Positions 191 to 40,911 of a stretch of DNA of 64,000 nt are shown piece by piece. The first letter of the stretch is position 1, and every line of letters begins with the position of its first letter. The DNA is from an uncultured Bacilli bacterium (GTDB lineage Bacteria; Bacillota_I; Bacilli_A; RF39; UBA660): assembly GCA_947627675.1 (NCBI GenBank), contig CANQWY010000001.1, positions 5,334 through 69,333 of the forward strand, given 5' to 3'. The position numbers were made by a program, and so were the translations under genes. The notes under the pieces are model-generated. The model saw nothing but the letters and a program-made list of their open reading frames with translations. It did no database searches and was not told the origin of the DNA.

Positions 191-332
191 GTTGCTTATT
201 GTAAAATTTTGTAAATATTAGGAAGGGTTGTTTACAATTTTTATTATTGATGATAAACTTGTAATGTAAGAATATAAATATGGTAGGAAGATGTATGTTC
301 TTACTTCTAGAATATTAATAGGAGGTGTTAAT

Positions 333-632: not shown

Positions 633-652
633 TTTTATAGGAGGAATAATAT

Positions 653-973: not shown

Positions 974-1061
974 TATATTGCATTCTATGCAATATATTGT
1001 AAATAAAAGAAATATTTCTTTTATTTACAATATATTTACATAGTATTAATAGGAGGAAAAA

Positions 1062-1550
1062 ATGGCACAAATTACAAGCTTATTGCAATGTTTTGATGTT
1101 AATATCGCAAATAAATATATATCTAGTTTAGATCAAGTTATATCTGAATTAAAATATAATAAAGAAAATATATCATCAAAGTGGGAATATTTTGGAAAAG
1201 ATACATTTTATTTTGGAAATTGTACTCCAATACAAGATAAAATGACAAATATTTCTAGTAAAATAGATGAAACTATTAAGAAAATTCAAAATATTGAAGA
1301 TAGCATTATGAAAAATTGTTTGATACAAAGAAGACAAGATTTGCAAAGCTATATTGTTTATTGTGACGAAATGATAAAATCATTAAATGGAAAAACAAAA
1401 AATACTACTACTCTTATAGGTTCCAATAGCGATTACCAAACTTTTTTAAGTTCTATAGAGAGAAAAAAACAATCGTGGGCAGATAAAAAAAGAATAGCCG
1501 AAGAAGAACTTACAGCAGTAAGAAAAGAAGTAGCAAAATATTATGCATAG
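1062..1550 (+). CDS. Hypothetical helical protein, 162 aa, in the size range of T7SS adaptors/chaperones (LapA2/EsaE-like position)
   Basis: Strong RBS (AATAGGAGGAAAAA-ATG). The sequence is largely predicted helical/coiled-coil. I recognise no motif; placement in the operon is the main evidence for a role. Confidence 0.5.
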   Translation: MAQITSLLQCFDVNIANKYISSLDQVISELKYNKENISSKWEYFGKDTFYFGNCTPIQDKMTNISSKIDETIKKIQNIEDSIMKNCLIQRRQDLQSYIVYCDEMIKSLNGKTKNTTTLIGSNSDYQTFLSSIERKKQSWADKKRIAEEELTAVRKEVAKYYA

Positions 1551-1573
1551 ATTTTATGGGAGGAGTTGTTAAA

Positions 1574-3385
1574 ATGAGTTTAGGGAATGATTATATTTGG
1601 TATTATAATAGTAACAATATTGAAGAATGTAGCAGCATAGTAGAAGAACTACAAAAGAAAATGATTGATCTAACTAGTGAAAATTATAGTGTTTCTGATA
1701 TTTTGAAAAATATAACGAGAGATTTATCTAATATAAATGATTTTAGTAGTATTGCTAATAATTTTAATGTAGCGATTACTTCATTAGATGAATTAAAAAA
1801 AGATTTTGATACTACAGTAGCGTTAATTGATGATATAAGAACTAAAAATATTGAATTAGAAAAAAGTGCTAATTCAAATATTGACAATGCTTATAATTTA
1901 AGTGCTAATTTTTCTTTTGATAAAACAAATATTCAAAAAATAACACTAGATGCAACTGAATATAGCAAGCTGAAAAATTTTTTTGGAGTTAATAACACAA
2001 GCAATAGCAGTTCTGCTTCAACAGTTGCTACGCCTTTAGTAGCGGGTGCTACAAATCTTAATAATTATTTTTCTAATGGGAATATTAGTTTACCTAAATC
2101 TTCAAATAATAATTTAAAAAGTTCTAGTGTTACAAGTGCAGGAACTATTTCTTTAGCTGCTGGAATTTTAGATCCTACCACTGGAAAGATTGAAACATTT
2201 ACTCCAAATAAAGAAGCAGTATTTAGTAATAATAATGATAATAAAAATAATACTCCTAAAAGTACAAATACTAATAATATTTCATCCAAAAAGGAAATGA
2301 CATCTGACAATAAAAATACAAAAGATAGTACTACAAAAGTAGTAAATAAAAGTACTAATTCTATTAATAATATTACCAGTAGTACTAATAATATCTCAAG
2401 TAATACCAAGAGCAAAACTTCTCCTTCTGTTGCTGCCGTTATCACAACAAGTGGTGCTACTAGTTCAAAGGCTGTTAAAAAAGCAGTTTCTAATATTTCA
2501 CAAAAAAGCATAAAGAAAGAATTTTCTTCTAGTGAGGTTATAGAACCTAAAATAAAGGATACTTCAACAGTTAGCAGAGTTCCTAATTTTGATAATAAAG
2601 ATAAGTTGTTTGAAGAATTAAAACCAAATACAAGTGACAGAAATGATACAATTAAAGATTTTATTAATAAAAATAATATTAATTTTTCTTCTAATAGTAG
2701 CACTAGTCCATCTAAACCTTCTCAAGATAATAATTCTAATACAGTATCTAATAATGTGACTGACTCTAATAATTCTACTTCTAATTATTATACTAATTCT
2801 GGTTTTACCGGCAATACAAATGCTTCAGCTAGTAGTAATGTCAATTCTTCTAATTTAAATAATAACAATGGATATTATAAAATGAACAATCAGCCAGCTG
2901 CTTCTTCTGGTGAAACTCAGACTACAGTTATACCAGAAGTTGATAGTAGTACTAATGTTGATGTTCCAGATACTTCAACTGATAATTTATTTAATGTTGA
3001 TTCTAATCTTGATGATTATATTGATGTTGATATAGATAAATCAGCAGATATTGGCAAAGCTTCAGGTATTGGTGGAGTTATTCCAATTGTGGCAGGAGTT
3101 GGAGCCGCAACAGCTGCTGGAATTGGCGCTAAAATATATAAAGACAGAAAAGAAAATAATGAATTTGATTTAGATGAAGATAGATTATCAAATGAAAATA
3201 AATTTTGGACAGACGAAGATGCTTCAGTAATTCATAGTGAAAAAGAAATATACTCTGATGATGCAGATGGTAATGTTAATTCTACGTATCAAGCTACTTC
3301 TAATGATTTGGATGATAATGATACTTGGAGTATGCCTGATGAAGTTGATAAAAATAGTACCATTGATTTACTAGAAGGCAATTAG
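1574..3385 (+). CDS. Large low-complexity protein with an N-terminal helical domain and a C-terminal Gly/Ala-zipper transmembrane helix; candidate LXG-like/TspA-TelE-like effector
   Basis: Start revised to the ATG at 1574, with the RBS GGGAGGAG 9 nt upstream. The N-terminal ~150 aa are helical. About 330 aa are rich in Ser/Asn/Thr/Lys. A single TM helix GIGGVIPIVAGVGAATAAGIGA has small-xxx-small periodicity. An acidic ~85-aa tail follows. No known catalytic toxin motif was recognised. Confidence 0.5.
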   Translation: MSLGNDYIWYYNSNNIEECSSIVEELQKKMIDLTSENYSVSDILKNITRDLSNINDFSSIANNFNVAITSLDELKKDFDTTVALIDDIRTKNIELEKSANSNIDNAYNLSANFSFDKTNIQKITLDATEYSKLKNFFGVNNTSNSSSASTVATPLVAGATNLNNYFSNGNISLPKSSNNNLKSSSVTSAGTISLAAGILDPTTGKIETFTPNKEAVFSNNNDNKNNTPKSTNTNNISSKKEMTSDNKNTKDSTTKVVNKSTNSINNITSSTNNISSNTKSKTSPSVAAVITTSGATSSKAVKKAVSNISQKSIKKEFSSSEVIEPKIKDTSTVSRVPNFDNKDKLFEELKPNTSDRNDTIKDFINKNNINFSSNSSTSPSKPSQDNNSNTVSNNVTDSNNSTSNYYTNSGFTGNTNASASSNVNSSNLNNNNGYYKMNNQPAASSGETQTTVIPEVDSSTNVDVPDTSTDNLFNVDSNLDDYIDVDIDKSADIGKASGIGGVIPIVAGVGAATAAGIGAKIYKDRKENNEFDLDEDRLSNENKFWTDEDASVIHSEKEIYSDDADGNVNSTYQATSNDLDDNDTWSMPDEVDKNSTIDLLEGN

Positions 3386-3395: not shown

Positions 3396-3785
3396 ATGGA
3401 AAATAGAGAATTTTTACCTATAGGATCAGTTGTTTTATTAAAAGGTGGAGAAAAAAAAGTTATGATTACTGGTTTTTGTATGACACCGAATGAAAATAAA
3501 CATAAGATATACGATTATAGTGGCTGCTTATATCCTGAAGGAATCGTTAATTCTAATGAAATATTTTTATTTGATAATAAGCAAATAGCTGAGGTGTATT
3601 TTAAAGGATACATTGATGAAGAAGAGTCTGATTTTAAAAGTGAACTTAAAGAGACTATTAAAGAATTAAAGGTAGATGATGATAATAATATAGTTAGTGA
3701 AAATTTATCTGACACCATTTCAGTTATAGAAAATCCATTTGATCTTAATCAAACATTTGAACCTAAAATTAATATCTTTGAGTAA
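3396..3785 (+). CDS. DUF4176-like protein, 129 aa
   Basis: RBS TTAGGAGAATAAAT-ATG. The N-terminal LPIGSVVLLKGGEKKVMITG matches, from memory, the conserved start of DUF4176 proteins, a family commonly encoded next to T7SSb/LXG genes. An HMM search is needed. Confidence 0.5.
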   Translation: MENREFLPIGSVVLLKGGEKKVMITGFCMTPNENKHKIYDYSGCLYPEGIVNSNEIFLFDNKQIAEVYFKGYIDEEESDFKSELKETIKELKVDDDNNIVSENLSDTISVIENPFDLNQTFEPKINIFE

Positions 3786-3788
3786 GTG

Positions 3789-3823
3789 AAAATTATATAA
3801 TATAAGTTATATAATTTTTTTTT
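3789..3823 (+). terminator. Intrinsic terminator of the five-gene operon
   Basis: AAAATTATATAA-tataag-TTATATAATTTT hairpin followed by a run of 9 T. Confidence 0.7.
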
Positions 3824-3921
3824 AAATATTCATATAAATAATTTAGTCTTCTAATAAATCTTTGAGATATTTACTTTTTTTGATATACTATATATATATT
3901 ATTCATTAGGAGCTGGTTAAT

Positions 3922-5730
3922 ATGGAACAAAAAAATATTAGAAATTTTTCAATAATTGCTCATATAGATCATGGTAAAAGTACATTAGCTGATAGATTAT
4001 TAGAAGAATGTGGTTCTATTAGTGAGCATGAGGCTAAAAGTCAAATCCTTGATTCAATGGATATTGAAAGAGAGAGAGGAATTACTATAAAACTTAATAC
4101 AGCTACAATGAAATATAAATATAAAAATAAAGAATATACCCTTAATTTAATTGATACCCCAGGTCATGTTGATTTTTCATATGAAGTTAGTAGAAGTCTT
4201 GCAGCTAGTGATGGGGCTATTCTTGTAGTTGATGCTAGCCAAGGAATAGAAGCTCAAACTATTGCAAATTTATATCTTGCGATGGAGAATGATCTTACAA
4301 TAATTCCGGTTATAAATAAAATAGATTTACCCAATGCAGATGTCTTAAAAGTAAAAAATGAGTTGAAAGAGCTAGTTGGCTTTAGTGATGAAGAAATCAT
4401 TTTAACTAGTGCTAAAACAGGGGTAGGAATTAAAGAACTGTTGTGTGCAATAATTGATAGAATTCCATCTCCAAAAGGTGATAAAAATAATAAATTACAA
4501 GCTCTTATTTTTGATAGTATATTTGATAGTTACAGAGGAGTAGTAATCTCTTGCCGTATTTTTAATGGAATACTAAATGTTTCAGATACAATAAAAATGC
4601 ATAATAGTGATAAGGAATATATTGTAACAGAACTTTTTATTACAACTCCCAAAGAAGTCAAAGTTAAATCATTATCTAGTGGCGAAGTTGGCCATATTGT
4701 AGCCTCAATTAAGGATATTTCAACTGTAAGAGTTGGTGATACTATTACTTCAAAAGAAAACTATACTAATAAGGCATTAGCAGGATATAAACCAATGAAA
4801 CCTATGGTTTTTTGTGGACTTTATCCTATTGATAGTGGTAAATTTGAAAGTTTGAGAGATGCTTTAAATAAATTAAAGCTTAATGATGCTTCTTTAGAAT
4901 TTACTCCTGAAACTTCTTCTGCATTAGGATATGGGTTTAGATGTGGTTTTTTAGGTCTTTTACATATGGATATAATTAAGGAAAGAATATCTCGTGAATT
5001 TGGTATTGATATAATAACAACAGCGCCTAGTGTTATATATGAAGTCTTATATACTAATTTAGAAAAAGAAGAGATATCATCACCTAGTTTAATGCCTGAT
5101 AAAAGCCGAATTAAAGAGATTAGAGAACCATTTGTTAAGACGAATATTTTTACTCCAACGGAATATATAGGTCCAATTATGGAACTTTGTCAAGAAAGAA
5201 GAGGGAAATATATTTCTATGGATTATATTGATAAAACTCGAGTAAATATACATTACGAAATGCCTCTTTCTGAAATTGTATATAATTTTTTTGATAAATT
5301 AAAATCAAATACAAAGGGCTACGCTTCATTTGACTATGAATACGTCGGAAATAAAGCTAGTGATTTAGTAAAAATGGATATTTTGCTTAATGGTGAAATT
5401 ATTGATGCATTATCAACCATTGTTCATAAAGATTTTAGTTATACTAGAGGCAAAATGATAGTTGAGCAACTAAAAGAGGCTATACCTAGGCAGTTATTCG
5501 AAATACCTATTCAAGCTTCTATCTATAATCATGTGATTGCTCGAAGTACAGTTAAAGCATTAAGAAAAGATGTTTTAGCAAAATGCTATGGTGGAGATGT
5601 TACCCGTAAGAAAAAATTATTAGAAAAGCAAAAAGCTGGTAAAAAAAGAATGAAAAAAATAGGGAGTGTTGAACTTCCACAAGAAGCATTTATGAGTGTA
5701 TTGAGTGTAGATAGTAAAAATAATATCTAG
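3922..5730 (+). CDS. lepA: Elongation factor 4 (translational GTPase LepA)
   Basis: N-terminal [23 protein letters not shown]1 motif, [12 protein letters not shown], and a LepA-specific C-terminus. 602 aa. Confidence 0.95.
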
Positions 5731-5763
5731 ACTAATTAATCGCATGTAAAGGTGGTAGAAAAA

Positions 5764-6846
5764 ATGGTTAAATCTGTTTATATACATATTCCTTTTTGTA
5801 AAAATATATGTTCTTATTGTAATTTTTGTAAGATGTATTATAACGAAAAAATGGCATCTATTTATTTAGATGCTTTATATTTAGAAATTGTTAATAATTA
5901 TAAAGGAGAAAAAGTATCAACAATTTATATAGGTGGAGGAACACCGAGTGATTTAAGTATTAGCAATTTAAAAAAATTATTTAAAATTATAGAAATTTTT
6001 AATAAAGATGAAAAATGCGAATTTAGTTTTGAGTGTAATGTTGATATAGAAAAAGAAAAATTAATATTACTTAAAGATAATCAAGTTAATAGACTTAGTT
6101 TTGGAATTGAAACTATTAGTAAAAAAAATTTAAAGATAATTGATAGAAACCATAATAAAAAGATAATTAATGATAAAATAAAATTATGTAGAGATATTGG
6201 CTTTAGTAATATAAATGGTGATTTAATGTATGCTTTTGATAATGAAACTATGGAAGAGTTGAAAAATGATATTAATTTTATGTTAAGCCTTAATTTAGAG
6301 CATATTTCAACATATTCTCTTATAATAGAAAAGCATACTAAACTATACTTAAATGGAGCTAAAAACTGTGATGAAGATTTAGACTATAAAATGTATAAGA
6401 CAATTCATAATTTATTACTAAAAAATGGATATATTCATTATGAAGTAAGTAACTTTTCTAAAAATAATTTTTCTTCCTTACATAACCTGACATATTGGAA
6501 AAATGAAGAATATTATGGTTTTGGTTTATCTGCGAGTGGTTATATAGATAATATTAGATATACTAATACTAAAAGTTTTAACAATTATATTCAGGGAATA
6601 TACAAATATGAGGTTGAAAAATTGGATAAATATGATAAAATTAATTATGAGATAATTTTAGGATTGAGGCTAAGGAATGGTGTTAACCTAAAAAATTTTT
6701 TTCATAAATATAATGTTAATATTGAAGATTTATTTTTTATTAATGATTATTTATCTTTGGGTTATCTTATTAAGAATGATAATCTTTATATTCCTTACAA
6801 TAAGTGGTATGTAATGAATAGTATTTTAGAGAGGTTTGTGAAGTAA
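5764..6846 (+). CDS. hemW: Radical SAM heme chaperone HemW (coproporphyrinogen III oxidase-like)
   Basis: CKNICSYC radical-SAM CxxxCxxC motif. It lies immediately downstream of lepA, as is typical in Firmicutes. The start is probably the ATG at 5764; the track uses the GTG at 5752. Confidence 0.8.
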   Translation: MVKSVYIHIPFCKNICSYCNFCKMYYNEKMASIYLDALYLEIVNNYKGEKVSTIYIGGGTPSDLSISNLKKLFKIIEIFNKDEKCEFSFECNVDIEKEKLILLKDNQVNRLSFGIETISKKNLKIIDRNHNKKIINDKIKLCRDIGFSNINGDLMYAFDNETMEELKNDINFMLSLNLEHISTYSLIIEKHTKLYLNGAKNCDEDLDYKMYKTIHNLLLKNGYIHYEVSNFSKNNFSSLHNLTYWKNEEYYGFGLSASGYIDNIRYTNTKSFNNYIQGIYKYEVEKLDKYDKINYEIILGLRLRNGVNLKNFFHKYNVNIEDLFFINDYLSLGYLIKNDNLYIPYNKWYVMNSILERFVK

Positions 6847-7430
6847 TGATGGATAAAGTACAAGTATTTAAAACAGAAATAGGGTACATTGAAGATAAAA
6901 ATATAAGATTAAGTTTAGAGAATATGATTAATAAATTACCAGACTATTTTTTTAATATTGAAGCATCATCAACTGGTAAATATCATCCCTCTTATACTTT
7001 AGGAGAGGGCGGCTTAGTTAGGCACACTAAAGCTGCAGTTAGAATCGCCTATGAACTTTTATGTGATCCTTTAATAGGTGATAAATATACTCCTAAAGAA
7101 AAAGATTTAATGATTATGGGTTTAGTATTACATGATGGATTAAAACACGGTCTTGATATGGACAAGTATACTAAATTTGATCATCCACTTATAATGGCTA
7201 AATATATTGAAGATAATAAAAGCGACCTTTTTTTAGAAAATAATGAGGTGGAATTTTTAAAAGAAGTTATTTCTAGCCATATGGGTCCTTGGACAATAAA
7301 TTATAAAGGTGAAGATGTATTGCCAAGACCTAAAAATAAGTTTCAGAATTTTGTTCATATGTGTGATTATTTAGCAAGTAGGAAATGTATTTTATTTGAA
7401 TTTGATAGTGACAACAACATAATTAATTAA
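6846..7430 (+). CDS. HD-domain phosphohydrolase
   Basis: H...HD motif (LVLHDGLKHG) and length 194 aa. Confidence 0.65.
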   Translation: MMDKVQVFKTEIGYIEDKNIRLSLENMINKLPDYFFNIEASSTGKYHPSYTLGEGGLVRHTKAAVRIAYELLCDPLIGDKYTPKEKDLMIMGLVLHDGLKHGLDMDKYTKFDHPLIMAKYIEDNKSDLFLENNEVEFLKEVISSHMGPWTINYKGEDVLPRPKNKFQNFVHMCDYLASRKCILFEFDSDNNIIN

Positions 7431-7461
7431 TTTCTTTTATATAATAAGAAAAGAGGATAAA

Positions 7462-8124
7462 ATGAAAGGTAAAATTATTGTTATAGAAGGAAATGATTGT
7501 TCTGGTAAAGAAACTCAATCAAAAATGTTAGAACAGTCTCTTTTAAGTAAAGGTCTTAAGTGTATGAGAATGGATTTTCCTAATTATAATTCACCAACAG
7601 GTAAAATCATTAGTGATTGCTACCTAGGCAAAAGTGGGAAAAGTTATTTTCCAGAAGGTGCTAATAATGTAGATCCTTTTATTGCATCTTTATATTATGC
7701 TGCAGATAGAAAATATAATATTTCTAAAAATATTATAGATTGCTATAATGACGGATATTACATTATATTAGATAGATATACGAGTTCAAATCAAGCTCAT
7801 CAAGGTGCCAAAATAAAAGATAAAGATGAAAGATTTAATATGTATCAATGGATTGATAAACTTGAATATTGGCTTTTAAAATTACATAAGCCAGATATTA
7901 CTATTTATTTACATGTTCCATATGATTATGTTTCTCTTTTAATAGAAGATAGGGGACTTTCTACTGAAAATAAAAAGGATATAGCTTATTTGAAAAAAAG
8001 TGAAGAAGCTTATGTCGAACTTTCAGAACTTTATTTTTGGAAAAGAGTAGATTGTGTTTCTGATAATAAGTTAAAATCAATAGATGAAATTCATAAAGAA
8101 ATTATTGATATTGTATACAAATAA
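7462..8124 (+). CDS. Thymidylate kinase-like (dTMP kinase family) P-loop protein with a degenerate Walker A
   Basis: IVIEGNDCSGKETQ resembles the Tmk P-loop (EGxDGxGKTT), but the residue after the Lys is Glu. About 220 aa. Confidence 0.5.
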   Translation: MKGKIIVIEGNDCSGKETQSKMLEQSLLSKGLKCMRMDFPNYNSPTGKIISDCYLGKSGKSYFPEGANNVDPFIASLYYAADRKYNISKNIIDCYNDGYYIILDRYTSSNQAHQGAKIKDKDERFNMYQWIDKLEYWLLKLHKPDITIYLHVPYDYVSLLIEDRGLSTENKKDIAYLKKSEEAYVELSELYFWKRVDCVSDNKLKSIDEIHKEIIDIVYK

Positions 8125-8153
8125 AAGAAACAAGTTAATTTAGCTTGTTTCTT
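8125..8153. terminator. Hairpin between convergent genes, probably a bidirectional terminator
   Basis: AAGAAACAAG-ttaatttag-CTTGTTTCTT; there is a T run on the minus-strand side. Confidence 0.4.
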
Positions 8154-8907
8154 CTTCAATTAATAGCCTATTTTTGTAAATATATGCTGATATAATAGAA
8201 GTTATGGGTATTATTATAATGCAGCCCAATCCACTAGAAAGAATTTTAATAAATTCGCTTGCAAAAACTTTGGCATTTAAAATATCTCCAAGGCTATATT
8301 TACTTATTTTAAACCATATTAATAAAGTCATAAAGTCACATAGATAAGCGAAAAACAATGTATTAATAGTTGTAGTTAAAATATCTTTTCCAATACTCAT
8401 TCCTGATTTAATTAAATTTTTTGTTGATAAGTCAGGATTATTATAATATACTTCGTAAAGTGCAGATGATATTGCAATGGATGAATCTATAGTAGCTCCA
8501 ATTAATCCTATTATAATAAGTGAAATTTCAATTGTAATCATATTTATATTTATATCATATGAAAACATATTAATTTCTTCACTTGACTCACTGCCAAAAC
8601 CACCTAATTTGGCTTTTATTACAATAATATAAATGAATAATAACATTAATAATAGAACTATAAATATTGCTATAAATGATGTTTTAGTTTTTTGGTTTTT
8701 ACCATTGATATAAAATAAAACAATATAACTTGTTATAAGACAAAAAATAATGGAAACAAATATAGGATTTAAACCTAATGCTATTAGATAAAAAGTTATT
8801 ATTAATAAAATGAAATTGATAATTATTGAGAAAAATATTTTTATACCTTTTTTTCTTGATATTATAACTAATAATATAAAAAGTATTATCGCTAAAAATA
8901 TATTCAT
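8140..8907 (-). CDS. Polytopic membrane protein, YibE/F-like
   Basis: Highly hydrophobic with multiple TM segments. It is paired with an upstream similar membrane protein, with stop and start overlapping. The family call is tentative. Confidence 0.4.
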   Translation of the reverse strand: MNIFLAIILFILLVIISRKKGIKIFFSIIINFILLIITFYLIALGLNPIFVSIIFCLITSYIVLFYINGKNQKTKTSFIAIFIVLLLMLLFIYIIVIKAKLGGFGSESSEEINMFSYDININMITIEISLIIIGLIGATIDSSIAISSALYEVYYNNPDLSTKNLIKSGMSIGKDILTTTINTLFFAYLCDFMTLLIWFKISKYSLGDILNAKVFASEFIKILSSGLGCIIIIPITSIISAYIYKNRLLIEEETS

Positions 8908-9968
8908 TATTTTGCCTCCTTTTTATATATATATAAACAACTATATGTTGATACTATAATTGTCAAAGTTATTCCAATACTACCTATTAAAAATCTTGTT
9001 AATTCTAAGCTGTAATTGCTTGTTATATAGTTTTTTAAAGTGAATCCGTTTCTTAATGCTAATATAAGTGTTGGTAAAGCACTACTTAAATATGTAAAAA
9101 ATAGGACATTTATCATAGTCGAAGTAATATCTTGGGATATATTTTTTGCAGATTCTTTTAAAGCCTCACAACTTATTTTTTTATTTTTTTTAACTAGTTC
9201 ATCAAAACTAGATGATAATGTTATAGCAACATCCATGATAGCACCAAGACCACCAATAATGATTTCTGCTGTAAAAACGTCTTCTGGAGGAGTAGTTAAA
9301 AAACTCATACCATTAAAATTTATACCATTATATTTTGTTATTATTTTTACTAGCATAATTAATCCAATTAAAACAAAAATAGATATTAAAGATGAAATTA
9401 TAGCTGATTTTGTCTTTTTATTATAACCGTTTGTTATTAATAAAGATACTATTGTAAATATAACAGTTTCAAATATAATCAATAATATTAGATTAATTCC
9501 TTTTTGATATAGTGTTAAACCTATTGTAAAAATAGTTATATTTATAATAAGGCTAGCAAGAGAAATTAATCCAACTTTGTTTCCTATTATTGAGATAAAA
9601 ATAACAAAAATTATAATAGCATATATTATATATTTATCTCTTTTTAACCCTATAATCGTATTGTCTTTAATAAAAACAATATCGTTTTTAGAATATTTTT
9701 CTGTTACAACATTTGATGTAGTATATGTATTTTCTACAGTAATAGTTTTATTTTTATCTTTTGTATTAAGTAATTTTCCTGTGATTATTTGCTTGTAATA
9801 TTTTTCTTCCAGACCAAAAGGGGACTTTTCAACTGTTTCAAGTTTATTTTTAACATTACTAATTTTAATTATTTTTTCTTTATAGAAATTATAGTTATTA
9901 TTAACTATATATATACTAATTATAGATAGTATTAGTAATAAAAATAATATAATTTTTCTTTTTTTCAT
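8907..9968 (-). CDS. Polytopic membrane protein, YibE/F-like, with an N-terminal extracytoplasmic segment
   Basis: N-terminal signal/TM segment, a ~100-aa soluble region, then 6-7 TM segments. It is translationally coupled to the downstream membrane protein. Confidence 0.4.
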   Translation of the reverse strand: MKKRKIILFLLLILSIISIYIVNNNYNFYKEKIIKISNVKNKLETVEKSPFGLEEKYYKQIITGKLLNTKDKNKTITVENTYTTSNVVTEKYSKNDIVFIKDNTIIGLKRDKYIIYAIIIFVIFISIIGNKVGLISLASLIINITIFTIGLTLYQKGINLILLIIFETVIFTIVSLLITNGYNKKTKSAIISSLISIFVLIGLIMLVKIITKYNGINFNGMSFLTTPPEDVFTAEIIIGGLGAIMDVAITLSSSFDELVKKNKKISCEALKESAKNISQDITSTMINVLFFTYLSSALPTLILALRNGFTLKNYITSNYSLELTRFLIGSIGITLTIIVSTYSCLYIYKKEAK

Positions 9969-10010
9969 ATTTTCACCTTCTTTTATTAAATATTATACTT
10001 TATAATTATA

Positions 10011-10038
10011 AAAAGAAAAAGCACCGATTTGTGCTTTT
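10011..10038 (-). terminator. Intrinsic terminator downstream of the pilB-like ATPase gene
   Basis: On the minus strand, an AAAAGCAC-aaatcg-GTGCTTTT hairpin is followed by TTTTTCTTTTT. Confidence 0.6.
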
Positions 10039-10039
10039 A

Positions 10040-12631
<2,592 letters not shown>

Positions 12632-12654
12632 TAAAAAATCACCCTTTTTTATTC

Positions 12655-12683
12655 TTTACAAGTTTCTCCTATTTTAATATAAT
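12655..12683 (+). promoter_or_regulatory. Sigma-A-like promoter for the pilin gene pair
   Basis: TTTACA, a 17-nt spacer, then TATAAT, about 50 nt upstream of the pilin RBS (AAGGAAAG). It lies in the divergent intergenic region shared with the ATPase gene. Confidence 0.5.
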
Positions 12684-12731
12684 AAATTATATAATAGATT
12701 TTGAACATTTTCAAGAAGGAAAGTTGAGTTT

Positions 12732-13400
12732 ATGAAAAAAAGAATGAAAAAAAACGGTTTTGCTATGGTTGAAGTTTTAATCGCGGCAGTTAGTGTGATT
12801 TCAATTTTTGCTCTTTTATACAATACAACGTATCCAATAATAGGTAGTTATAATACTATTGAAAAGTATGATGATCTTGATAGTAAGTATGTGGCTTTTT
12901 ATATAAAAGAAATGTTAGAAACAGATAGTAATTTTTCTGTTGGAAGTATATCTTTTAATAATCCAGATTGTGCTAATACTTGTAGTATATATAAAACATA
13001 TGCTTATAAAGTAGATAGTGCCGGCATAGACATAAAGATTAATGATGTTGATACTATAAATGATCATTATCTATATAAAAATGAGCTTTGTAATCAATTA
13101 ACAGAGTCAAACAATACAAAAAATAATCAATATTTTTGCAATAAATATATTACAGGTGCTGAAGTTACTAATATTTATGTTACTAAGTACGATGTTTCTG
13201 AATTTAAAGGAGCAGTAAAAAATAGCTCTAGATTCTCCAGAGGTTTTAAAAATTATGTTAGTTATATGCCAAGTCATACTGCTGCTAGTTCTACTAAAAA
13301 AAATAATTATTATAGAATAATAGTTGAGATAGAGCATGATTCTTATAATACAGCGGATGATATTTATTATACTTATTCATCAATCGAGGTGAAAAAATAG
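12732..13400 (+). CDS. Type IV pilin-like / pseudopilin protein (class III signal peptide)
   Basis: N-terminus MKKRMKKNG|FAMVEVLIAAVSVISIFALL has a basic leader, Gly at -1, Phe at +1, Glu at +5 and a hydrophobic helix. Confidence 0.75.
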   Translation: MKKRMKKNGFAMVEVLIAAVSVISIFALLYNTTYPIIGSYNTIEKYDDLDSKYVAFYIKEMLETDSNFSVGSISFNNPDCANTCSIYKTYAYKVDSAGIDIKINDVDTINDHYLYKNELCNQLTESNNTKNNQYFCNKYITGAEVTNIYVTKYDVSEFKGAVKNSSRFSRGFKNYVSYMPSHTAASSTKKNNYYRIIVEIEHDSYNTADDIYYTYSSIEVKK

Positions 13401-14113
13401 TGAAAAAATTAAACAATAAAGGGATGACTTTAATCGAATTATTAGTCTCTTTTTCGATTGCTGCTACAATAGTTGTTTCAATGTTTAATGTCGTTATAAA
13501 CTATCAAAAAGAAGAATCTATTCAAGCAATTAAAAACGATATTATATCATATAAAAATACAATTACAAAAATAATTCAAACCGATATAATAAAAGGGGGC
13601 TTAAGAAGTGTACATTTAGATGTTAGAAATGTAAATAGTGGAGGTAATAATTCTACAGTTTATGAAATGATTTTTAGATTTAATAATAGATTGCCATATT
13701 GTAGTGGTAGTGATAATTATTGTAAATATAAGAATTTGACAATTGTTGCTAGTAATACTTCAGAAAACTATATTATGTATCAGGATATTAATATACGTGG
13801 GCAAAAACAAGACGTAAAATATTCTTTAATGGATGCTTCTAAAGGCTGCTTATTTGAAAAAGAAAGTGATACTTGTATTAGTTTGCAAAATATCTTAAAA
13901 TTTTCGTCTATCACAACTAATATAAATGTTACAACATCAGGAGATCCTTCTCTAAACAGTAATAATAATGCTGTTAAATATTCTGATGGAACAATAGGAG
14001 ATAATATTGCTAGATATTTTAAGCTTGATATTGCTATTAGTCACCCTGATCTTGGAGGAGAGTATCATATTAATCTAGTGACTCCCTTAAACTATCCCTA
14101 TTGCAAACCATAA
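13400..14113 (+). CDS. Type IV pilin-like / pseudopilin protein (class III signal peptide)
   Basis: The GTG start overlaps the upstream stop (TAGTG), with a GAGGTG RBS. N-terminus MKKLNNKG|MTLIELLVSFSIAATIVV has Glu at +5. Confidence 0.75.
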   Translation: MKKLNNKGMTLIELLVSFSIAATIVVSMFNVVINYQKEESIQAIKNDIISYKNTITKIIQTDIIKGGLRSVHLDVRNVNSGGNNSTVYEMIFRFNNRLPYCSGSDNYCKYKNLTIVASNTSENYIMYQDINIRGQKQDVKYSLMDASKGCLFEKESDTCISLQNILKFSSITTNINVTTSGDPSLNSNNNAVKYSDGTIGDNIARYFKLDIAISHPDLGGEYHINLVTPLNYPYCKP

Positions 14114-15010
14114 AATTAATAATACTATACAAATAGAAAGACTAGCTATTCTTCCTAATAAGAAATAACTATAATTTAATTTCTCTTTTTTTATAATTTC
14201 TTTGACTTGAAAATGAACACTTATTCCTCCAAAACTTAGGAAAGATGTTATTAAAAATACTTTGAAAAAAAGGCTAACATTTAAATTTTTTAGTGTAATT
14301 ATTCCTTTTGTCAAGTCAAATATTCCATAAATTATAGTTTTTATTAAACTGTTATCTATAAAGCTTACTAAAATATCTGAAAATGTAAAGAAAAAAATAG
14401 TATTTCCTAATATTAAAAGCATAACTTTAGCGCTATTGTAAAAAGAATTGGCAAGTGCAGATGAAAAACTTTCCTTATTTATAGTAGGAGGTATTTTTTC
14501 TATTTCAATTTGTTTCGGCCTTATTATAAATGCTAAAATAAAATTAGATAAATAGTGACAAAGTAATACGATATATGCAACTTTCTTACCATATAATATT
14601 GCAATAGTTCCCATTATAAATAGGGGATTAGAAAAATGAGTAAAAGTAAGAAGAAAATTAGCTTGATTTTTACTAATTACTTTCTTCTCTAAAAAAGATG
14701 TTGTATATTTAGCCCCGCTTGGGAATCCAGATAAAATACTCATTATAAGTATAAAGGAACTAGATCCAGATATATGAAAAACTTTTAAGAATAATTTATT
14801 AAATAAAGACCCTAATAATTTTATAAAACCATAATTTATTAATAAATCAGAAATAGTATAAAAGAAGAAAATAGCAGGAAATAGATTATTCTTAAATATA
14901 TTAATAGCTTCTAGAATATCTTGAAAAATATAATTTGGATTTAATATTGTATACATCAAACATATTAATAAAATAAATATGATTATAAAAGATTTTATTT
15001 TTTTTAACAT
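14087..15010 (-). CDS. Polytopic membrane protein, YlbJ-like (sporulation integral membrane protein / nucleoside-recognition Gate-domain family)
   Basis: About 8 TM segments. It is divergent from a ylbL-like gene, mirroring the Bacillus subtilis ylbJ/ylbL neighbourhood. It has no prepilin-peptidase zinc or Asp motifs. Confidence 0.4.
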   Translation of the reverse strand: MLKKIKSFIIIFILLICLMYTILNPNYIFQDILEAINIFKNNLFPAIFFFYTISDLLINYGFIKLLGSLFNKLFLKVFHISGSSSFILIMSILSGFPSGAKYTTSFLEKKVISKNQANFLLTFTHFSNPLFIMGTIAILYGKKVAYIVLLCHYLSNFILAFIIRPKQIEIEKIPPTINKESFSSALANSFYNSAKVMLLILGNTIFFFTFSDILVSFIDNSLIKTIIYGIFDLTKGIITLKNLNVSLFFKVFLITSFLSFGGISVHFQVKEIIKKEKLNYSYFLLGRIASLSICIVLLILWFAIGIV

Positions 15011-16180: not shown

Positions 16181-16210
16181 TTGACGGGTTACTAATTAAT
16201 ATATTATAAT
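16181..16210 (+). promoter_or_regulatory. Sigma-A-like promoter for the giant pilin gene
   Basis: TTGACG, an 18-nt spacer, then TATAAT, about 30 nt upstream of the GGTGG RBS. Confidence 0.5.
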
Positions 16211-16239
16211 TTTCTTATAAAATATGGTGGTTAGATAAT

Positions 16240-19158
16240 ATGGAAAAGTATAATAAAATTAATAATAAAGGTTTTACATTGATTGAGGTTATTGCAGCAG
16301 TTGCAATATTAGGAATTTTAAGTGGTACAGCAATTACGGGTGTTTCTCGATATGTTAGTAATTCACATGAGGAATATTGTACGTCCCAAGCTGATATGCT
16401 AGAAATAGCAGGACGTGACTATTTTAATGATAATAATACATTGCTTCCATTAACAATGGGCGGAAGAAATTGTGTTAGCCTCCAAACATTGATTAATAAT
16501 AAATATATAGAGACAATGAAAGACTACAGTGATAGTGTTTGTAATGTAAATAATAGTAAAGTATGTACGATGAAACATATAGCAAGTGGCTATATATATT
16601 CAACATACTTAGATTGTAATAGATGTAACAATTATAATAAAAGCAGCCAAGATGATTTAAATGAAAGTAATGTAAGCACACCAACAATTTCTTATATTGC
16701 AGATACAACTCCAGCTGGAAGCTGTACCAATGCAGTAAATAAAGATATAACAGTAACAATAAAATTTAGTGATAGTAAACATAAAATAGTAAGTTATTCA
16801 TATACAGTTTACCAAAAAACAAATTCAGGTGATGTGGCAGTAGAAACAATAGATTATAGAGAATACAAAAATAAAGATATAAAAGTAAAACTAAATAGAA
16901 AGGGAACTTACTATATAGTAGCAACAGCATATAATTCAATAGGGAAAAAAGGAGAAGAGAAAAGTTGCGACTATGTACTTAGATATAATTTAAATTGTAG
17001 CAGTCAAATTGAAATAAGTGCTAAGAAAAAAGAAACAGGAGCCAATCTTTCTAGACAAACATGGATGAAAGGGACATTACAAATTACTGTTAAAAAAAGT
17101 GGTGATGTTGAAAGTTATGATGTGTACATAAGTAAAAGTAATGGAACTTCTGGAGCCTCATTTGGAGCATATCAAAAAGTAATATCACTGGCAACTGCTC
17201 AAAGTAGAACTATAACCTATAGTAGTAGTGAGACAGGAAAATATAGAGTAAAAGTAGTTGCTTATAATGATCAAGGTGATACATGTACAAAAGGAGGAGA
17301 TTCAACATTTGAATATTGGCAAGATAATACAGATCCTACTTGTACAACTGTGGGAGCACCAGGTCGCTGGGTGAATTACAATGTTACATTAACAGGAAGA
17401 TGTTCAGATCCTCATAGTGGATGTGATAATTCTAAACCTGCTTCTAATTATCTTTCCTATGAGTATGATGGCTATGCTAGTGCTGGGCGAGTATATGATA
17501 ATGTAGGTAATGTTGGTTATTGTAATGATGTGTGGATTGGAATTGATAAAACACCTCCAACATGTGAAATAGAGCTTGATGGAGATGAAGGAAATAATGA
17601 TTACTATATAAGTGATGTTACTGCAAATCTAAGTTTTGAAGATCCAGGTGAAATAACAAGTGAAGCAGAAAACTATGGAATTTCAACTTCAAGTTCACCA
17701 ACTTATAACGGCAGTCAAACTTATACTCATAGTTCTAATACAAATAATTATGTTAATGTTTATGGATATATTAAAGATAATGCCGGTAATACTGGAAAAT
17801 GTAGTGAAAAATTTAAGTTAGATAAAACACCTCCAACATATAGAAAAAATTCTGTTCAGGGAACAAGAGTTGGTAGTGGTTATGCCGATGGTTCAATGTT
17901 ATCAGTTACTTGTAGTGATGTTGGTAGTGGACCTATAAATACTAGTGATCAAGTTTATTTTTACGGTTCTGAAGCAACATTAAATGGGTATTGTGAGGAT
18001 AAGGCTGGTAATGTCTCAGATGAATATGATATAACATATCATAATTGTCCAAATAGCTTGTGTGGTTATGACGTAGATTATAATATAAGATGGAATTGCT
18101 ATAATTCTTATGGGAATCTAATATCTTCTCCATGTGAGTCAAGTAGCAATTATTTTCCAGCATGTTGTATGCAAGCTGAGAATTACTGTAGTGGAGAGTC
18201 GAGTTCATCATGCGGAGTAAAATCTAGAACAAAAAAAACATGCTGGCATCAAAGTAGTTGTCAAAGCAATACTACCACTTCCCCACCTAAAGTTAATGAC
18301 AAAACACCTCCAGGCTGTCCTAGTGTTTCTTCAGATTATTCGCCTAATTCAAAAGGTTGGACCAATAAAAATGTGAAATTAACATTTTCATTTACATCAG
18401 ATACAAAAAAATATACATTCTATACTAAAGAACAAAGCAGCTCATCTTGGAAGAATAATGGTACTAAAAATGTTTCCACAAAAAGACAAACTATATCACA
18501 AGAAGGAATTATAAGTACAAAAGTTGATGTATATGATGCTAGTGGAAATAAAAAGACTTGTACTTTTACAGATAAATATAAAATTGATAAGACAGCTCCT
18601 TACACTCCCTACATTGATAAAAATGACACAAAAAATATTGATGGTGAGACAGTAAAAGTAAACTATTATGGGGATTGTGATAAAGCTTGTGCTAGCGCAA
18701 ACCCTGGTAATAAGAATAGTGCTTCATTGCAAAGTAGTGGTAAAACCTGTTTTACTGACTTAAAATGTAGTGTTGGTGCAAAATCAAAAGTGGCTGCAGA
18801 ATGCGTTTATAGTAAAGATTATTCTTGCGGTACTGTAAAAGTTGTTAAAAAAGATAGTACTGATAATACTCCTAATGTTTCTGGTATTTGTACAGATAAT
18901 TCAGATACATATGGATATCAATACTATAATTGTGTTAGAAAAGAAGGCTCAACAACTTTTTCAGATCATACTATTAGAAAAGTTCAAATTACAGATTGTG
19001 CTGGCAATAAAAGTAAAGTACTTACTATTTCTGAATTAGGTGCCCACATTTATGGAATAGGCTTAAAATCTTATTATCAAATTTCAAATAATAAATGGAC
19101 ACTCAGAAGTGGAAAAACAAGACCTAGTAGCTTCACCTCTAGTTGTTATTTAAACTGA
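16240..19158 (+). CDS. Giant modular type IV pilin-like protein (972 aa), Cys-rich with repeated Ig-like modules
   Basis: N-terminus MEKYNKINNKG|FTLIEVIAAVAILGILSG is a class III signal with Glu at +5. About 950 aa of Cys/Ser/Thr/Asn-rich sequence follow, with four recurring DKTPP/DKTAP module boundaries (IDKTPPTC, LDKTPPTY, NDKTPPGC, IDKTAPYTPY). Confidence 0.75.
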   Translation: MEKYNKINNKGFTLIEVIAAVAILGILSGTAITGVSRYVSNSHEEYCTSQADMLEIAGRDYFNDNNTLLPLTMGGRNCVSLQTLINNKYIETMKDYSDSVCNVNNSKVCTMKHIASGYIYSTYLDCNRCNNYNKSSQDDLNESNVSTPTISYIADTTPAGSCTNAVNKDITVTIKFSDSKHKIVSYSYTVYQKTNSGDVAVETIDYREYKNKDIKVKLNRKGTYYIVATAYNSIGKKGEEKSCDYVLRYNLNCSSQIEISAKKKETGANLSRQTWMKGTLQITVKKSGDVESYDVYISKSNGTSGASFGAYQKVISLATAQSRTITYSSSETGKYRVKVVAYNDQGDTCTKGGDSTFEYWQDNTDPTCTTVGAPGRWVNYNVTLTGRCSDPHSGCDNSKPASNYLSYEYDGYASAGRVYDNVGNVGYCNDVWIGIDKTPPTCEIELDGDEGNNDYYISDVTANLSFEDPGEITSEAENYGISTSSSPTYNGSQTYTHSSNTNNYVNVYGYIKDNAGNTGKCSEKFKLDKTPPTYRKNSVQGTRVGSGYADGSMLSVTCSDVGSGPINTSDQVYFYGSEATLNGYCEDKAGNVSDEYDITYHNCPNSLCGYDVDYNIRWNCYNSYGNLISSPCESSSNYFPACCMQAENYCSGESSSSCGVKSRTKKTCWHQSSCQSNTTTSPPKVNDKTPPGCPSVSSDYSPNSKGWTNKNVKLTFSFTSDTKKYTFYTKEQSSSSWKNNGTKNVSTKRQTISQEGIISTKVDVYDASGNKKTCTFTDKYKIDKTAPYTPYIDKNDTKNIDGETVKVNYYGDCDKACASANPGNKNSASLQSSGKTCFTDLKCSVGAKSKVAAECVYSKDYSCGTVKVVKKDSTDNTPNVSGICTDNSDTYGYQYYNCVRKEGSTTFSDHTIRKVQITDCAGNKSKVLTISELGAHIYGIGLKSYYQISNNKWTLRSGKTRPSSFTSSCYLN

Positions 19159-19185
19159 GAGATTTATATCTTTCAGTTTTTTGTT
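19152..19185 (+). terminator. Intrinsic terminator after the giant pilin gene
   Basis: AAACTGAGAGAT-ttat-ATCTTTCAGTTT hairpin (one mismatch) followed by TTTTGTTATTTTTT. Confidence 0.6.
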
Positions 19186-19252
19186 ATTTTTTCTGTTACA
19201 TAGACTTTTTATTGTAAATTTGATACAATTATATTAGCAAGAGGAGTAGTAT

Positions 19253-38882: not shown

Positions 38883-38883
38883 T

Positions 38884-39438: not shown

Positions 39439-39444
39439 AAAATC

Positions 39445-39640: not shown

Positions 39641-39646
39641 TATTAA

Positions 39647-40822: not shown

Positions 40823-40911
40823 AACTATTATAATTATATCAAAATTATTTCTATAATAAAAGGAGTTTGTAGTTAAAAAATTTTTTTGATATAATGTTTT
40901 TGGTGATTTTC

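What the first reader, a model, noticed from the sequence alone, without database searches (positions are those of the whole stretch)
16240..19158. 972-aa Cys-rich modular giant pilin with four repeated DKTPP/DKTAP-delimited modules
After the prepilin signal and pilin helix, the protein contains dozens of cysteines, often in CxxC/CxC pairs. There are four recurrences of a module boundary: GIDKTPPTCEIELDGD, FKLDKTPPTYRKNSVQG, VNDKTPPGCPSVSSD and YKIDKTAPYTPYIDKND. These are spaced about 100-170 aa apart and typical of tandem Ig-like/Big-type domains. The C-terminal part is highly Cys/Ser-rich (NCPNSLCGYDVDYN...CCMQAENYCSGESSSSCG). Modular pilins are known (for example the S. sanguinis minor pilins with vWA or lectin modules). 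A pilin of about 1000 aa with 4+ modules and this cysteine density is exceptional. It probably forms a disulfide-stabilised tip or adhesin. It has its own sigma-A-like promoter (16181-16210) and terminator (19152-19185).
Basis: seen in the sequence. Interest (0 to 1): 0.6.

Follow-up and report, generated by a model that had tools for sequence, protein, structure and literature searches.

The report
Giant cysteine-rich modular type IV pilin
This gene encodes a 972-residue pilus subunit carrying a long string of antibody-like domains that are probably held by disulfide bonds; it is real, but it is a typical member of a large, unstudied family in uncultured gut bacteria rather than a one-off oddity.

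Summary
The ORF (16240-19158, +) is real. It has a class III (prepilin) signal, 40 Cys and the four DKT[AP]P boundaries, plus a fifth degenerate one at residue 362. The "often CxxC/CxC" detail is wrong: there is one CxxC and one CC.

The Cys behave as disulfide pairs:
- Thirteen are invariant among 11 homologues.
- Pairs are gained or lost together.
- 98 of 116 pilin-type relatives have an even Cys count.

The protein is not exceptional. A profile search finds 29,959 related cluster representatives. Of the top 144, 56 are pilin-type, with median length 1035 aa and median Cys 3.2%.

In all six close homologue contexts examined, and at the other large-pilin loci, the gene sits alone with no pilus ATPase nearby. 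Here a PilB-like ATPase and two small pilin genes lie 2-6 kb upstream, and one related MAG conserves that arrangement.

Most likely it is a tip-displayed adhesin of a type IV filament (inferred). It is a new member of the known "modular pilin" kind.

The parts
16181..16210 (+). sigma-70/SigA-like promoter candidate (TTGACG, 18 nt, TATAAT)
   Evidence: 11 of 12 consensus matches in the 170-bp intergenic gap upstream of the ORF. This is a consensus match only.
16226..16230 (+). Shine-Dalgarno-like GGTGG, 9 nt before the ATG
   Evidence: Read directly from the sequence printed.
16240..19158 (+). Complete CDS of the 972-aa modular pilin (stop codon included)
   Evidence: An identical protein, P0001, is in NCBI-derived data.
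16240..16272 (+). Leader peptide, aa 1-11 (MEKYNKINNKG), ending in the Gly that precedes the predicted prepilin-peptidase cleavage site
   Evidence: N_methyl / TIGR02532 match at aa 8-31. Cleavage itself is inferred.
16273..16659 (+). Pilin module, aa 12-140: F+1, E+5, hydrophobic alpha1N, a long alpha1 helix (14-64) and a small beta-sheet head with six invariant Cys (47, 78, 101, 109, 126, 129)
16660..16989 (+). M1, aa 141-250: beta-sandwich, weakly PKD-like, with a lineage-specific Cys pair C162/C243
   Evidence: AF2 pLDDT about 85-90, all-beta. Weak PKD hit. C162 and C243 are both present only in this protein.
16990..17322 (+). M2, aa 251-361: beta-sandwich (weak PKD, Y_Y_Y and fn3 similarity) with the invariant pair C253/C349
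17323..17544 (+). M3, aa 362-435: first Big_3-like repeat (D-N-T-D-P-T-C ... C-x-D-x-x-S-G-C ... D-N-V-G-N ... C) with four invariant Cys
   Evidence: HMM cross-matches to M5 and M6. Cys 368, 388, 395 and 428 are invariant. pLDDT is about 90.
17545..17820 (+). M4, aa 436-527: Big_3-like repeat starting at DKTPP and ending at D-N-A-G-N ... C
   Evidence: The equivalent region of homologue P0007 (aa 445-515) matches Pfam Big_3_2.
17821..18048 (+). M5, aa 528-603: Big_3-like repeat (DKTPP ... D-K-A-G-N); the strain-variable segment begins here
18049..18297 (+). Cys/Ser-rich linker, aa 604-686. Counting C603, it spans ten Cys, framed by CPNxLCGY and CWHQSxCQ. It is hypervariable between two strains.
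   Evidence: AF2 pLDDT below 50. No Pfam hit at E<=5. P0065 is identical at aa 33-552 but diverges here while keeping ten Cys.
18298..18585 (+). M6, aa 687-782: Big_3-like repeat (DKTPPGC ... D-A-S-G-N ... C)
   Evidence: pLDDT 75-84. HMM cross-matches to M4 at iE 4e-11.
18586..19155 (+). M7 plus tail, aa 783-972: starts at DKTAP. It is a degenerate fifth Big_3-like repeat with Cys-rich insertions, ending at D-C-A-G-N (919-923), followed by a 40-50-aa tail. It is the candidate distal or ligand-binding end.
   Evidence: Weak HMM matches at aa 864-927. It is shared only with P0065, P0011 and P0006. AF2 confidence is low.
19152..19189 (+). Intrinsic-terminator-like hairpin overlapping the stop codon, followed by a T-run
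   Evidence: 12-pair stem, 4-nt loop, tail TTTGTTATTT.
10040..12631 (-). PilB/GspE-family assembly ATPase (aa 1-400) with a roughly 460-aa low-complexity tail; a possible partner machinery component
   Evidence: Pfam T2SSE E 9e-118. TIGR02533/02538 match below the equivalog cut-offs. Linkage to the big pilin is conserved in L020.
12732..13400 (+). Small pilin-like protein, 222 aa (MKKRMKKNG|FAMVEV...), 4 Cys
   Evidence: Class III motif found by regex. No Pfam hit. A homologue sits next to PilB in L020.
13400..14113 (+). Small pilin-like protein, 237 aa (MKKLNNKG|MTLIEL...), 5 Cys
   Evidence: N_methyl E 4.6e-5. Weak ComGE, GspJ and GspI similarity.

Best explanation
The gene encodes a modular type IV (minor) pilin.

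Proposed steps:
1. A prepilin peptidase removes the 11-residue leader after Gly11 (inferred).
2. The hydrophobic alpha1 helix and the small six-Cys head allow the protein to be loaded by a type IV filament machinery. This most likely happens at the filament tip, because a 95-kDa C-terminal extension would not fit in the shaft (inferred by analogy with S. sanguinis PilB/PilC and ETEC CofB).
3. The extension is a thin rod, shown by modelling. It comprises two PKD/FN3-like and five Big_3-like beta-sandwich domains plus a small Cys-rich spacer.
4. Each unit is stapled by one or two disulfides, supported statistically by invariance, co-gain of pairs and even-number bias.
5. The rod projects a variable distal part (M5, linker, M6, M7) away from the cell, where it acts as an adhesin or ligand-binding arm (inferred).

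A beads-on-a-string shape would also be easier to thread through a monoderm cell wall than a bulky globular module.

The gene is monocistronic, with its own promoter-like and terminator-like sites. It belongs to a large family of orphan giant-pilin genes in uncultured, low-GC, spore-forming gut Bacilli, and a genome can carry several of them. That fits a repertoire of interchangeable adhesive subunits served by one machinery.
For: Pilin identity:
- N_methyl / TIGR02532 above the cut-offs, with G-1, F+1 and E+5.
- The profile of 11 homologues matches alpha1 of solved pilins (Geopilin E 2e-7, PilA, MshA, GspG).
- AF2 predicts helix 14-64 plus a small beta head, pLDDT 82.5 for aa 1-145.

Rod of Ig-like domains:
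- AF2 is all-beta with pLDDT 80-93 for aa 140-605 and 690-790.
- Foldseek hits tandem Ig/MG/FN3 arrays, E 1e-11 to 1e-8.
- 10 of 18 family members match Big_3_2, through the D.AGN...DKTaP end of the model.
- M3-M6 cross-match as repeats.

Disulfides:
- 13 Cys are invariant in 11 homologues, distributed 6/2/4/1+ per domain.
- C162/C243 and C585/C603 are present or absent together.
- 40 Cys, 4.1% against a 1.0% background.
- 98 of 116 pilin-type relatives have an even Cys count, p 1.6e-14.
- The two strains keep ten Cys in a diverged linker.

Variable distal end:
- Identity to homologues is 50-60% in the head and M1-M4, but M7 is shared with only 3 proteins.
- The strain variant diverges only in residues 553-720.

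Machinery:
- A PilB-like ATPase and two small pilin-like genes lie 2-6 kb upstream.
- That arrangement is conserved in L020.

Precedent: modular pilins are established adhesins (PMC8179133).
Against: - No prepilin peptidase, PilC platform or major pilin gene is in the 64-kb window, so a complete machinery is not shown.
- All six close homologue contexts examined, and every other locus with a pilin of at least 600 aa, have no PilB within about 10 kb. Linkage to a pilus is therefore weak for the family.
- No ligand-binding domain is recognisable, and the distal 180 residues are modelled at low confidence.
- Disulfide formation in a presumably anaerobic Firmicute has no identified catalyst here. 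The only thioredoxin-fold gene seen (41516-41818) matches the classical Pfam Thioredoxin family and was not examined for a signal peptide.
Confidence: 0.55

Rival explanations
1. Pilin-like anchor without polymerisation. The class III signal peptide is used only for export and processing. The mature protein stays anchored in the membrane by alpha1N, and the roughly 25-30-nm Ig-like rod spans the cell wall to display the distal end. This would be a surface-display system comparable to the archaeal 'bindosome' proteins that carry class III signals (from general knowledge).
For: Family members are orphan genes scattered among housekeeping genes, with no machinery nearby. Several paralogues can occur per genome, including five tandem ~675-aa pilin genes in L042. 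Seven-plus beta-sandwich domains in series would be long enough to cross a Gram-positive wall (inference). No PilC, PilD or major pilin gene is in the window.
Against: E+5 is invariant and the whole alpha1 and head are the best-conserved part of the family (53-60% identity). That is expected if the head makes filament contacts. A PilB ATPase and two minor-pilin-like genes are syntenic with it in two species. Characterised bacterial modular pilins are filament-borne (PMC8179133).
Confidence: 0.25
2. Component of a Com-type or T2SS-type pseudopilus, used for DNA uptake or protein secretion rather than for an adhesive pilus.
For: The nearby ATPase scores about equally on GspE, PilB and ComGA models, all below the equivalog cut-offs. 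The small neighbouring pilin has weak ComGE, GspJ and GspI similarity.
Against: Known Com and T2SS minor pseudopilins are small and operon-encoded. This is a 972-aa orphan gene with seven Ig-like domains and no recognisable DNA-binding or secretion-related module. There is no comGB- or comEC-like gene next to it.
Confidence: 0.08
3. The cysteines are metal ligands (Zn or Fe) or stay reduced in the anoxic gut, rather than forming disulfides. The Cx7C...CxxC set in the head and the CG-rich linker would then be metal-binding knuckles.
For: C101-x7-C109 and C126-x2-C129 are invariant and resemble a four-Cys site. The linker is Cys-dense and not confidently folded. Firmicutes generally avoid Cys in exported proteins (PMC2823432), and no Dsb-like gene was seen in the window.
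Against: There is a strong even-number bias across 116 relatives whose counts range from 9 to 76. Pairs are gained or lost together within single beta-sandwich domains. One or two Cys pairs per Ig-like domain is the classical disulfide pattern. Metal sites would not need even totals.
Confidence: 0.1

Closest known systems
Modular type IV minor pilins PilB (vWA module) and PilC (lectin module) of Streptococcus sanguinis (Raynaud et al. 2021, PMC8179133; PMC9934059)
   Same: A monoderm host. An N-terminal class III signal and a small pilin module are fused to non-pilin module(s). The expected tip display and adhesive role are the same.
   Different: The S. sanguinis proteins are bimodular, with one recognisable functional domain, and are encoded inside the pil operon. 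This protein has seven beta-sandwich domains plus a Cys-rich spacer and no recognisable binding domain. It is an orphan gene with 40 Cys.
CofB / TcpB minor pilins of type IVb pili (ETEC, V. cholerae), as described in PMC8179133
   Same: A large minor pilin whose pilin module is followed by beta-rich domains on a linker, proposed to sit at the pilus tip and initiate assembly.
   Different: CofB is about 520 aa, with a beta-repeat plus one beta-sandwich. It is trimeric, found in a diderm and operon-encoded. No sequence similarity was detected here.
Multi-domain modular pilins catalogued from InterPro (more than 1,200 proteins, 264 architectures; extreme case an 860-aa Falkowbacteria pilin with 12 repeats; PMC8179133)
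   Same: The same design principle: N_methyl followed by tandem repeated domains.
   Different: This protein carries no Pfam signature beyond N_methyl, so it would have been missed by that survey. It is longer than the cited extreme, and its relatives reach 1,748 aa.
Big_3 (PF12245/PF13750) bacterial Ig-like repeat adhesins with Sec signals
   Same: The same repeat type (D.AGN ... DKTaP boundary). The profile search finds these modules in Sec-type proteins of up to 6,119 aa.
   Different: Those proteins have ordinary signal peptides and are Cys-poor (median 0.97%). The pilin-type relatives have a median of 3.2%.
Clostridioides difficile PilJ (4ixj), a dual-pilin-fold type IV pilin
   Different: PilJ is about 270 aa and is built of two pilin-like folds, not Ig-like repeats.

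Membership tests
Type IV pilin / type IV filament subunit | Class III signal peptide: a short polar leader ending in Gly, then a hydrophobic residue at +1, Glu at +5 and about 20 hydrophobic residues | tested here: met
   MEKYNKINNKG|FTLIEVIAAVAILGILSGTAITGV. Pfam N_methyl 30.1 bits (cut-off 21.2) and TIGR02532 29 bits (cut-off 16.3). F12, T13 and E16 are invariant in 18 homologues.
Type IV pilin / type IV filament subunit | A long N-terminal alpha1 helix homologous to that of solved pilins | tested here: met
   AF2 predicts helix 14-64. The profile of A2 matches Geopilin (E 2e-7, positions 2-67), PilA, MshA and GspG in the PDB.
Type IV pilin / type IV filament subunit | A globular alpha-beta head with an antiparallel sheet packed on alpha1C | tested here: inconclusive
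Type IV pilin / type IV filament subunit | Cleavage and N-methylation by a prepilin peptidase (PilD/ComC) | not testable with these tools
   No peptidase A24 gene is among the annotated ORFs of the window. The rest of the genome was not available.
Type IV pilin / type IV filament subunit | Presence of an assembly machinery (ATPase, platform) in the same genome | tested here: inconclusive
   A PilB/GspE-family ATPase is at 10040-12631 with two small pilin-like genes. No PilC platform is in the window.
Type IV pilin / type IV filament subunit | Incorporation into a filament | not testable with these tools
   This requires purified pili with immunodetection or cryo-EM.
Modular pilin (sensu Raynaud et al. 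2021) | An N-terminal pilin module fused to one or more additional non-pilin structural modules | tested here: met
   The pilin module (aa 1-140) is followed by seven beta-sandwich domains.
Big_3 bacterial Ig-like domain (Pfam PF12245 / PF13750) | A match to the Pfam model above the gathering score | tested here: not met
   There is no Big_3 hit for this protein, even for isolated modules at E<=5. However, 10 of 18 homologues match Big_3_2 and 4 match Big_3_3. The match in P0007 (aa 445-515) corresponds to M4.
Big_3 bacterial Ig-like domain (Pfam PF12245 / PF13750) | Tandem beta-sandwich repeats with the D.AGN ... D(K/T)TaP junction | tested here: met
   There are five junctions (362, 436, 528, 687, 783). 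D.[AVS]GN occurs at 420, 513, 587, 766 and 919. The fold is all-beta, and the repeats cross-match.
Sortase-assembled Gram-positive pilins / LPXTG adhesins | A C-terminal LPXTG sorting signal with a hydrophobic tail | tested here: not met
   The C-terminus is ...RPSSFTSSCYLN, with no LPXTG and no terminal hydrophobic segment.
Com pseudopilus minor pilins (ComGD-GG) | Small proteins (under 200 aa) encoded in a comG operon; NCBIfam equivalog match | tested here: not met
   The protein is 972 aa and monocistronic. ComGE similarity is 18 bits against a cut-off of 49 and is confined to the N-terminus.

The most novel reading that the evidence does not exclude
Uncultured, low-GC, spore-forming gut Bacilli carry a lineage-wide repertoire of orphan giant, disulfide-rich pilins, sometimes several per genome and up to about 1,750 aa. 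These would function as an exchangeable surface-display system. Either many alternative tip adhesins are served by a single minimal type IV machinery, or wall-spanning rods are anchored by the pilin helix without polymerisation. They would contain a small, disulfide-knotted, strain-hypervariable cassette (aa 553-720 here) that diversifies under host or phage pressure. This would also imply an unrecognised extracytoplasmic disulfide-forming capacity in anaerobic Firmicutes.
Probability: 0.2. Interest if true: 0.6.

Novelty: new member of a known kind. Interest (0 to 1): 0.35.

Why it matters
Modular pilins are how simple type IV filaments gain new functions, but only a few have been studied, and those are bimodular.

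This protein represents a very large, essentially unannotated family. Pfam sees only the N-terminal methylation motif. The family comprises giant pilins from uncultured gut Bacilli, with a rod of Ig-like domains and an unusual, statistically clear disulfide signature for exported Firmicute proteins.

If these proteins are displayed on pili, they are likely major host- or particle-binding adhesins and antigens of a poorly known part of the gut microbiota. They would also extend the size range of what a type IV machinery can export through a Gram-positive wall.

For this single gene the result is mostly classificatory. It is a typical family member, not a unique object.

Tried and rejected
- Word-indexed protein search with the C-terminal module alone (aa 783-972) returned nothing, not even the self hit. 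This search was wasted. Local BLAST showed that only P0065, P0011 and P0006 share the module.
- The search for related loci with the 18-sequence alignment failed for lack of conserved stretches. The 11-sequence alignment worked.
- The metagenome-contig scan with the single protein found no relative.
- Exact look-ups of P0001 and P0065 found no contig on record. The strain-variable cassette therefore could not be examined at the DNA level.
- Whole-model Foldseek against the PDB gave only generic multi-Ig arrays with low TM scores. Foldseek on the head alone found nothing significant.
- Pfam on the isolated modules gave only sub-threshold PKD, Y_Y_Y, fn3 and HYR hints. I therefore rejected calling any module a HYR or PKD domain.
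- The TANB77 'conserved pilin' paper (PMC11680825) concerns a Tad-type cluster and is unrelated.
- I rejected a sortase/LPXTG adhesin (no sorting signal) and a gene-prediction artefact (11 homologues at 36-49% identity with conserved Cys).
- Rfam found nothing in the window.
Full report
**Observation**

The ORF at 16240-19158 (+) is intact and encodes 972 aa. The window has 26% GC.

The N-terminus is MEKYNKINNKG|FTLIEVIAAVAILGILSGTAITGV, a textbook class III (prepilin) signal. It matches Pfam N_methyl (30.1 bits, cut-off 21.2) and TIGR02532.

The quoted motifs are at residues 436, 528, 687 (DKTPP) and 783 (DKTAP). A fifth, degenerate boundary (DNTDP) is at 362.

The protein has 40 Cys (4.1%), against 1.0% in the 53 other ORFs of the window.

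A promoter-like site (TTGACG-18-TATAAT, 16181-16210), a GGTGG ribosome-binding site 9 nt before the ATG, and a terminator-like hairpin (19152-19179 plus a T-run) frame the gene. It therefore looks monocistronic.

**Anatomy**

An AlphaFold2 model built with 17 homologues has mean pLDDT 70.7. It is confident for aa 40-605 and 690-790. It shows:
- a helix at 14-64;
- a small head (strands 76-80, 107-114, 117-123);
- all-beta domains after that.

I delimit the parts as follows:

| Part | Residues |
|---|---|
| M1 | 141-250 |
| M2 | 251-361 |
| M3 | 362-435 |
| M4 | 436-527 |
| M5 | 528-603 |
| Cys/Ser-rich linker (pLDDT <50) | 604-686 |
| M6 | 687-782 |
| M7 plus tail (low confidence) | 783-972 |

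HMMs built from the homologues' copies of each module cross-match the others over their full length. M5 matches M3 at iE 3e-10 and M4 at 4e-8. M6 matches M4 at 4e-11. A weak extra copy ends at D-C-A-G-N 919-923. So there are five homologous repeats with the junction 'D.AGN...C....DKTPP'. They are preceded by two more distant PKD/FN3-like sandwiches, supported only by sub-threshold Pfam hints.

Foldseek of the whole model finds only generic tandem Ig/MG/FN3 arrays.

Pfam does not recognise the repeats in this protein. It does recognise them in relatives: 10 of 18 match Big_3_2, 4 match Big_3_3 and 3 match Big_13. These matches run through the C-terminal 'D.AGN...DKTaP' end of the model, and in P0007 the match falls on the M4 equivalent.

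**Is it a pilin?**

- The profile of 11 homologues hits the alpha1 region of solved pilins (Geopilin E 2e-7 over positions 2-67; PilA, MshA, GspG).
- A separate model of aa 1-145 reaches pLDDT 82.5.
- Foldseek finds nothing significant for the head.

I take the pilin identity as well supported by sequence and weakly supported by fold. Cleavage, methylation and polymerisation are untested.

**Cysteines**

In the 11-sequence alignment, 13 Cys are invariant within aa 1-442: six in the head, two in M2, four in M3 and one at the start of M4.

C162 and C243 occur only in this protein, and both fall in M1. C585 and C603 occur in the same five sequences. Pairs are therefore gained together.

Among 116 distinct pilin-type relatives, 98 have an even number of Cys in the mature part, with counts from 9 to 76 (binomial p 1.6e-14). 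The sequences are related, so this p-value is optimistic. Still, parity is kept across very different totals. Even-number bias is the criterion Daniels et al. used for disulfide-forming proteomes. The same paper reports that aerobic Firmicutes tend to exclude Cys from exported proteins (PMC2823432). The pattern here is thus notable for a Firmicute.

I conclude that the rod is disulfide-stapled. This is an inference from statistics, not a demonstration.

**Variation**

Identity to the ten close homologues is 50-60% in the head and about 37-60% in M1-M4. M5 is shared with 6 proteins and M7 with 3. The linker is shared with none except the identical entry.

P0065, a second protein in the same 90% cluster, is identical at aa 33-552 and about 98% identical after aa 720. 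It diverges strongly at 553-720. Both versions keep the frame motifs CPNxLCGY and CWHQSxCQ and ten Cys. This is a localised hypervariable cassette. I could not obtain its DNA.

**How common is it?**

The word-indexed search gave 64 hits. All but one of them carry a class III motif, and 20 are at least 972 aa long.

The exhaustive profile search found 29,959 cluster representatives at E <= 1e-3 and 1,983 at E <= 1e-30. Among the 144 top representatives that were new to the session:

| | Pilin-type | Not pilin-type (mostly Sec-type giants, up to 6,119 aa) |
|---|---|---|
| Count | 56 | 88 |
| Median length | 1035 aa | about 2,140 aa |
| Maximum length | 1,748 aa | 6,119 aa |
| Median Cys | 3.2% | 0.97% |

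Thirty of the pilin-type proteins are at least 972 aa and nine have at least 4.1% Cys. The Cys difference between the two groups is significant (Mann-Whitney p 9e-20).

Genome loci place the relatives in uncultured gut 'Bacilli bacterium' MAGs from human, rabbit, sheep and other hosts. These loci carry pilins of 600-1,573 aa, and one locus has five tandem ~675-aa pilin genes.

The protein is therefore typical of its family, not exceptional.

**Context**

The window is otherwise housekeeping and sporulation genes: ylbJ, ylbL/SepM-like, mutS, nusB, xseA, femAB, spoIVB, spoIIM, alaS, the dnaK operon, gyrA/B and topA.

A PilB/GspE-family ATPase (10040-12631, minus strand) and two small pilin-like genes (12732-14113) lie 2-6 kb upstream, separated from the big pilin by ylbJ and ylbL. 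The order PilB, two small pilins, ylbJ-sized ORF, ylbL-sized ORF, then big pilin recurs in L020, a rabbit-gut MAG whose PilB is 74% identical. No PilC, PilD or major pilin gene is in the window.

Six homologues examined in their contigs are single genes in six different housekeeping neighbourhoods. No other locus with a pilin of at least 600 aa has a PilB within about 10 kb.

**Mechanism**

The best-supported reading is a modular minor pilin that is loaded onto a type IV filament. It most likely sits at the tip and presents a thin, disulfide-stapled rod whose variable distal part binds a ligand. This works like S. sanguinis PilB/PilC and ETEC CofB (PMC8179133).

| Shown | Inferred |
|---|---|
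| Signal motif | Processing by a prepilin peptidase |
| alpha1 homology to solved pilins | Filament incorporation |
| Repeat architecture | Tip location |
| Cys pairing statistics | Adhesion |
| Conserved-proximal, variable-distal pattern | |

The main rival (about 0.25) is a processed but unpolymerised membrane-anchored rod that spans the wall. The orphan, multi-copy genomic pattern makes this credible. Com/T2SS pseudopilus roles and metal-binding Cys are less likely.

**Novelty and verdict**

[quoted passage not shown] The extreme case cited there is 860 aa. This protein carries no domain signature beyond N_methyl, so it falls into the under-counted part that paper anticipated.

I classify it as a new member of a known kind. 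It has two family-level points of interest: the disulfide-rich character in Firmicutes and the strain-hypervariable Cys-knotted spacer. Interest is 0.35.

Noticed in passing
window 10040-12631 (-): The PilB/GspE-family ATPase has a normal catalytic part (aa 1-400). It lacks the N-terminal region of the PilB and GspE models, since the match starts at model position ~106-177. It carries a ~460-aa Asn/Ser/Lys-rich low-complexity C-terminal tail with 3.4 copies of a 153-bp (51-aa) tandem repeat (10551-11074) and a 16-codon poly-Asn run (10391-10438). The L020 orthologue is only 621 aa.
   Followed up: partly
window 12732-13400 (+) and 13400-14113 (+): Two overlapping small pilin-like genes (222 and 237 aa) with class III motifs (G|FAMVEV, G|MTLIEL) are transcribed divergently from the ATPase. 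They have 4 and 5 Cys. The first has no Pfam or NCBIfam hit at all.
   Followed up: partly
protein P0065 versus window aa 553-720 (window 17896-18399): A second NCBI-derived protein in the same 90% cluster is identical outside this segment but strongly diverged inside it, while keeping ten Cys in the linker. This suggests a recombining or diversifying cassette.
   Followed up: partly
L042 (Hadza gut Bacilli MAG, CAKPHH010000006.1), about 3460-14200: Five consecutive genes each encode a ~675-aa protein with a class III pilin motif. This looks like a tandem array of large pilin paralogues.
   Followed up: no
window 291-3385 (+): Two ~110-aa, seemingly helical small proteins (291-632, 653-973) and a 162-aa protein precede a 609-aa Ser/Asn-rich protein that has a Gly/Ala-rich hydrophobic stretch near its C-terminus and no Pfam or NCBIfam hit. 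The layout is reminiscent of a WXG100/type VII secretion substrate cluster, but this was not tested.
   Followed up: no
window 36189-43530 versus L083 17756-23702: The block alaS, AAA_18 kinase, AI-2E transporter, Impact_N, CvpA, RNase HIII lies 17-24 kb from the big pilin here. It lies only 4-9 kb from the 1,233-aa pilin P0015 in another metagenomic contig, with order and orientation preserved overall and a thioredoxin gene in the window that is not annotated in L083. This hints at a loosely conserved chromosomal neighbourhood.
   Followed up: no
proteins P0069-P0209: The same Big_3-like repeat occurs in Sec-signal proteins of 1,200-6,119 aa with up to 27 matched stretches. These are Cys-poor (median 0.97%), unlike the pilin-type versions.
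   Followed up: partly
window 1-64000: No Rfam family reaches its gathering score anywhere in the 64-kb window, so no tRNA, rRNA or riboswitch was detected.
   Followed up: no
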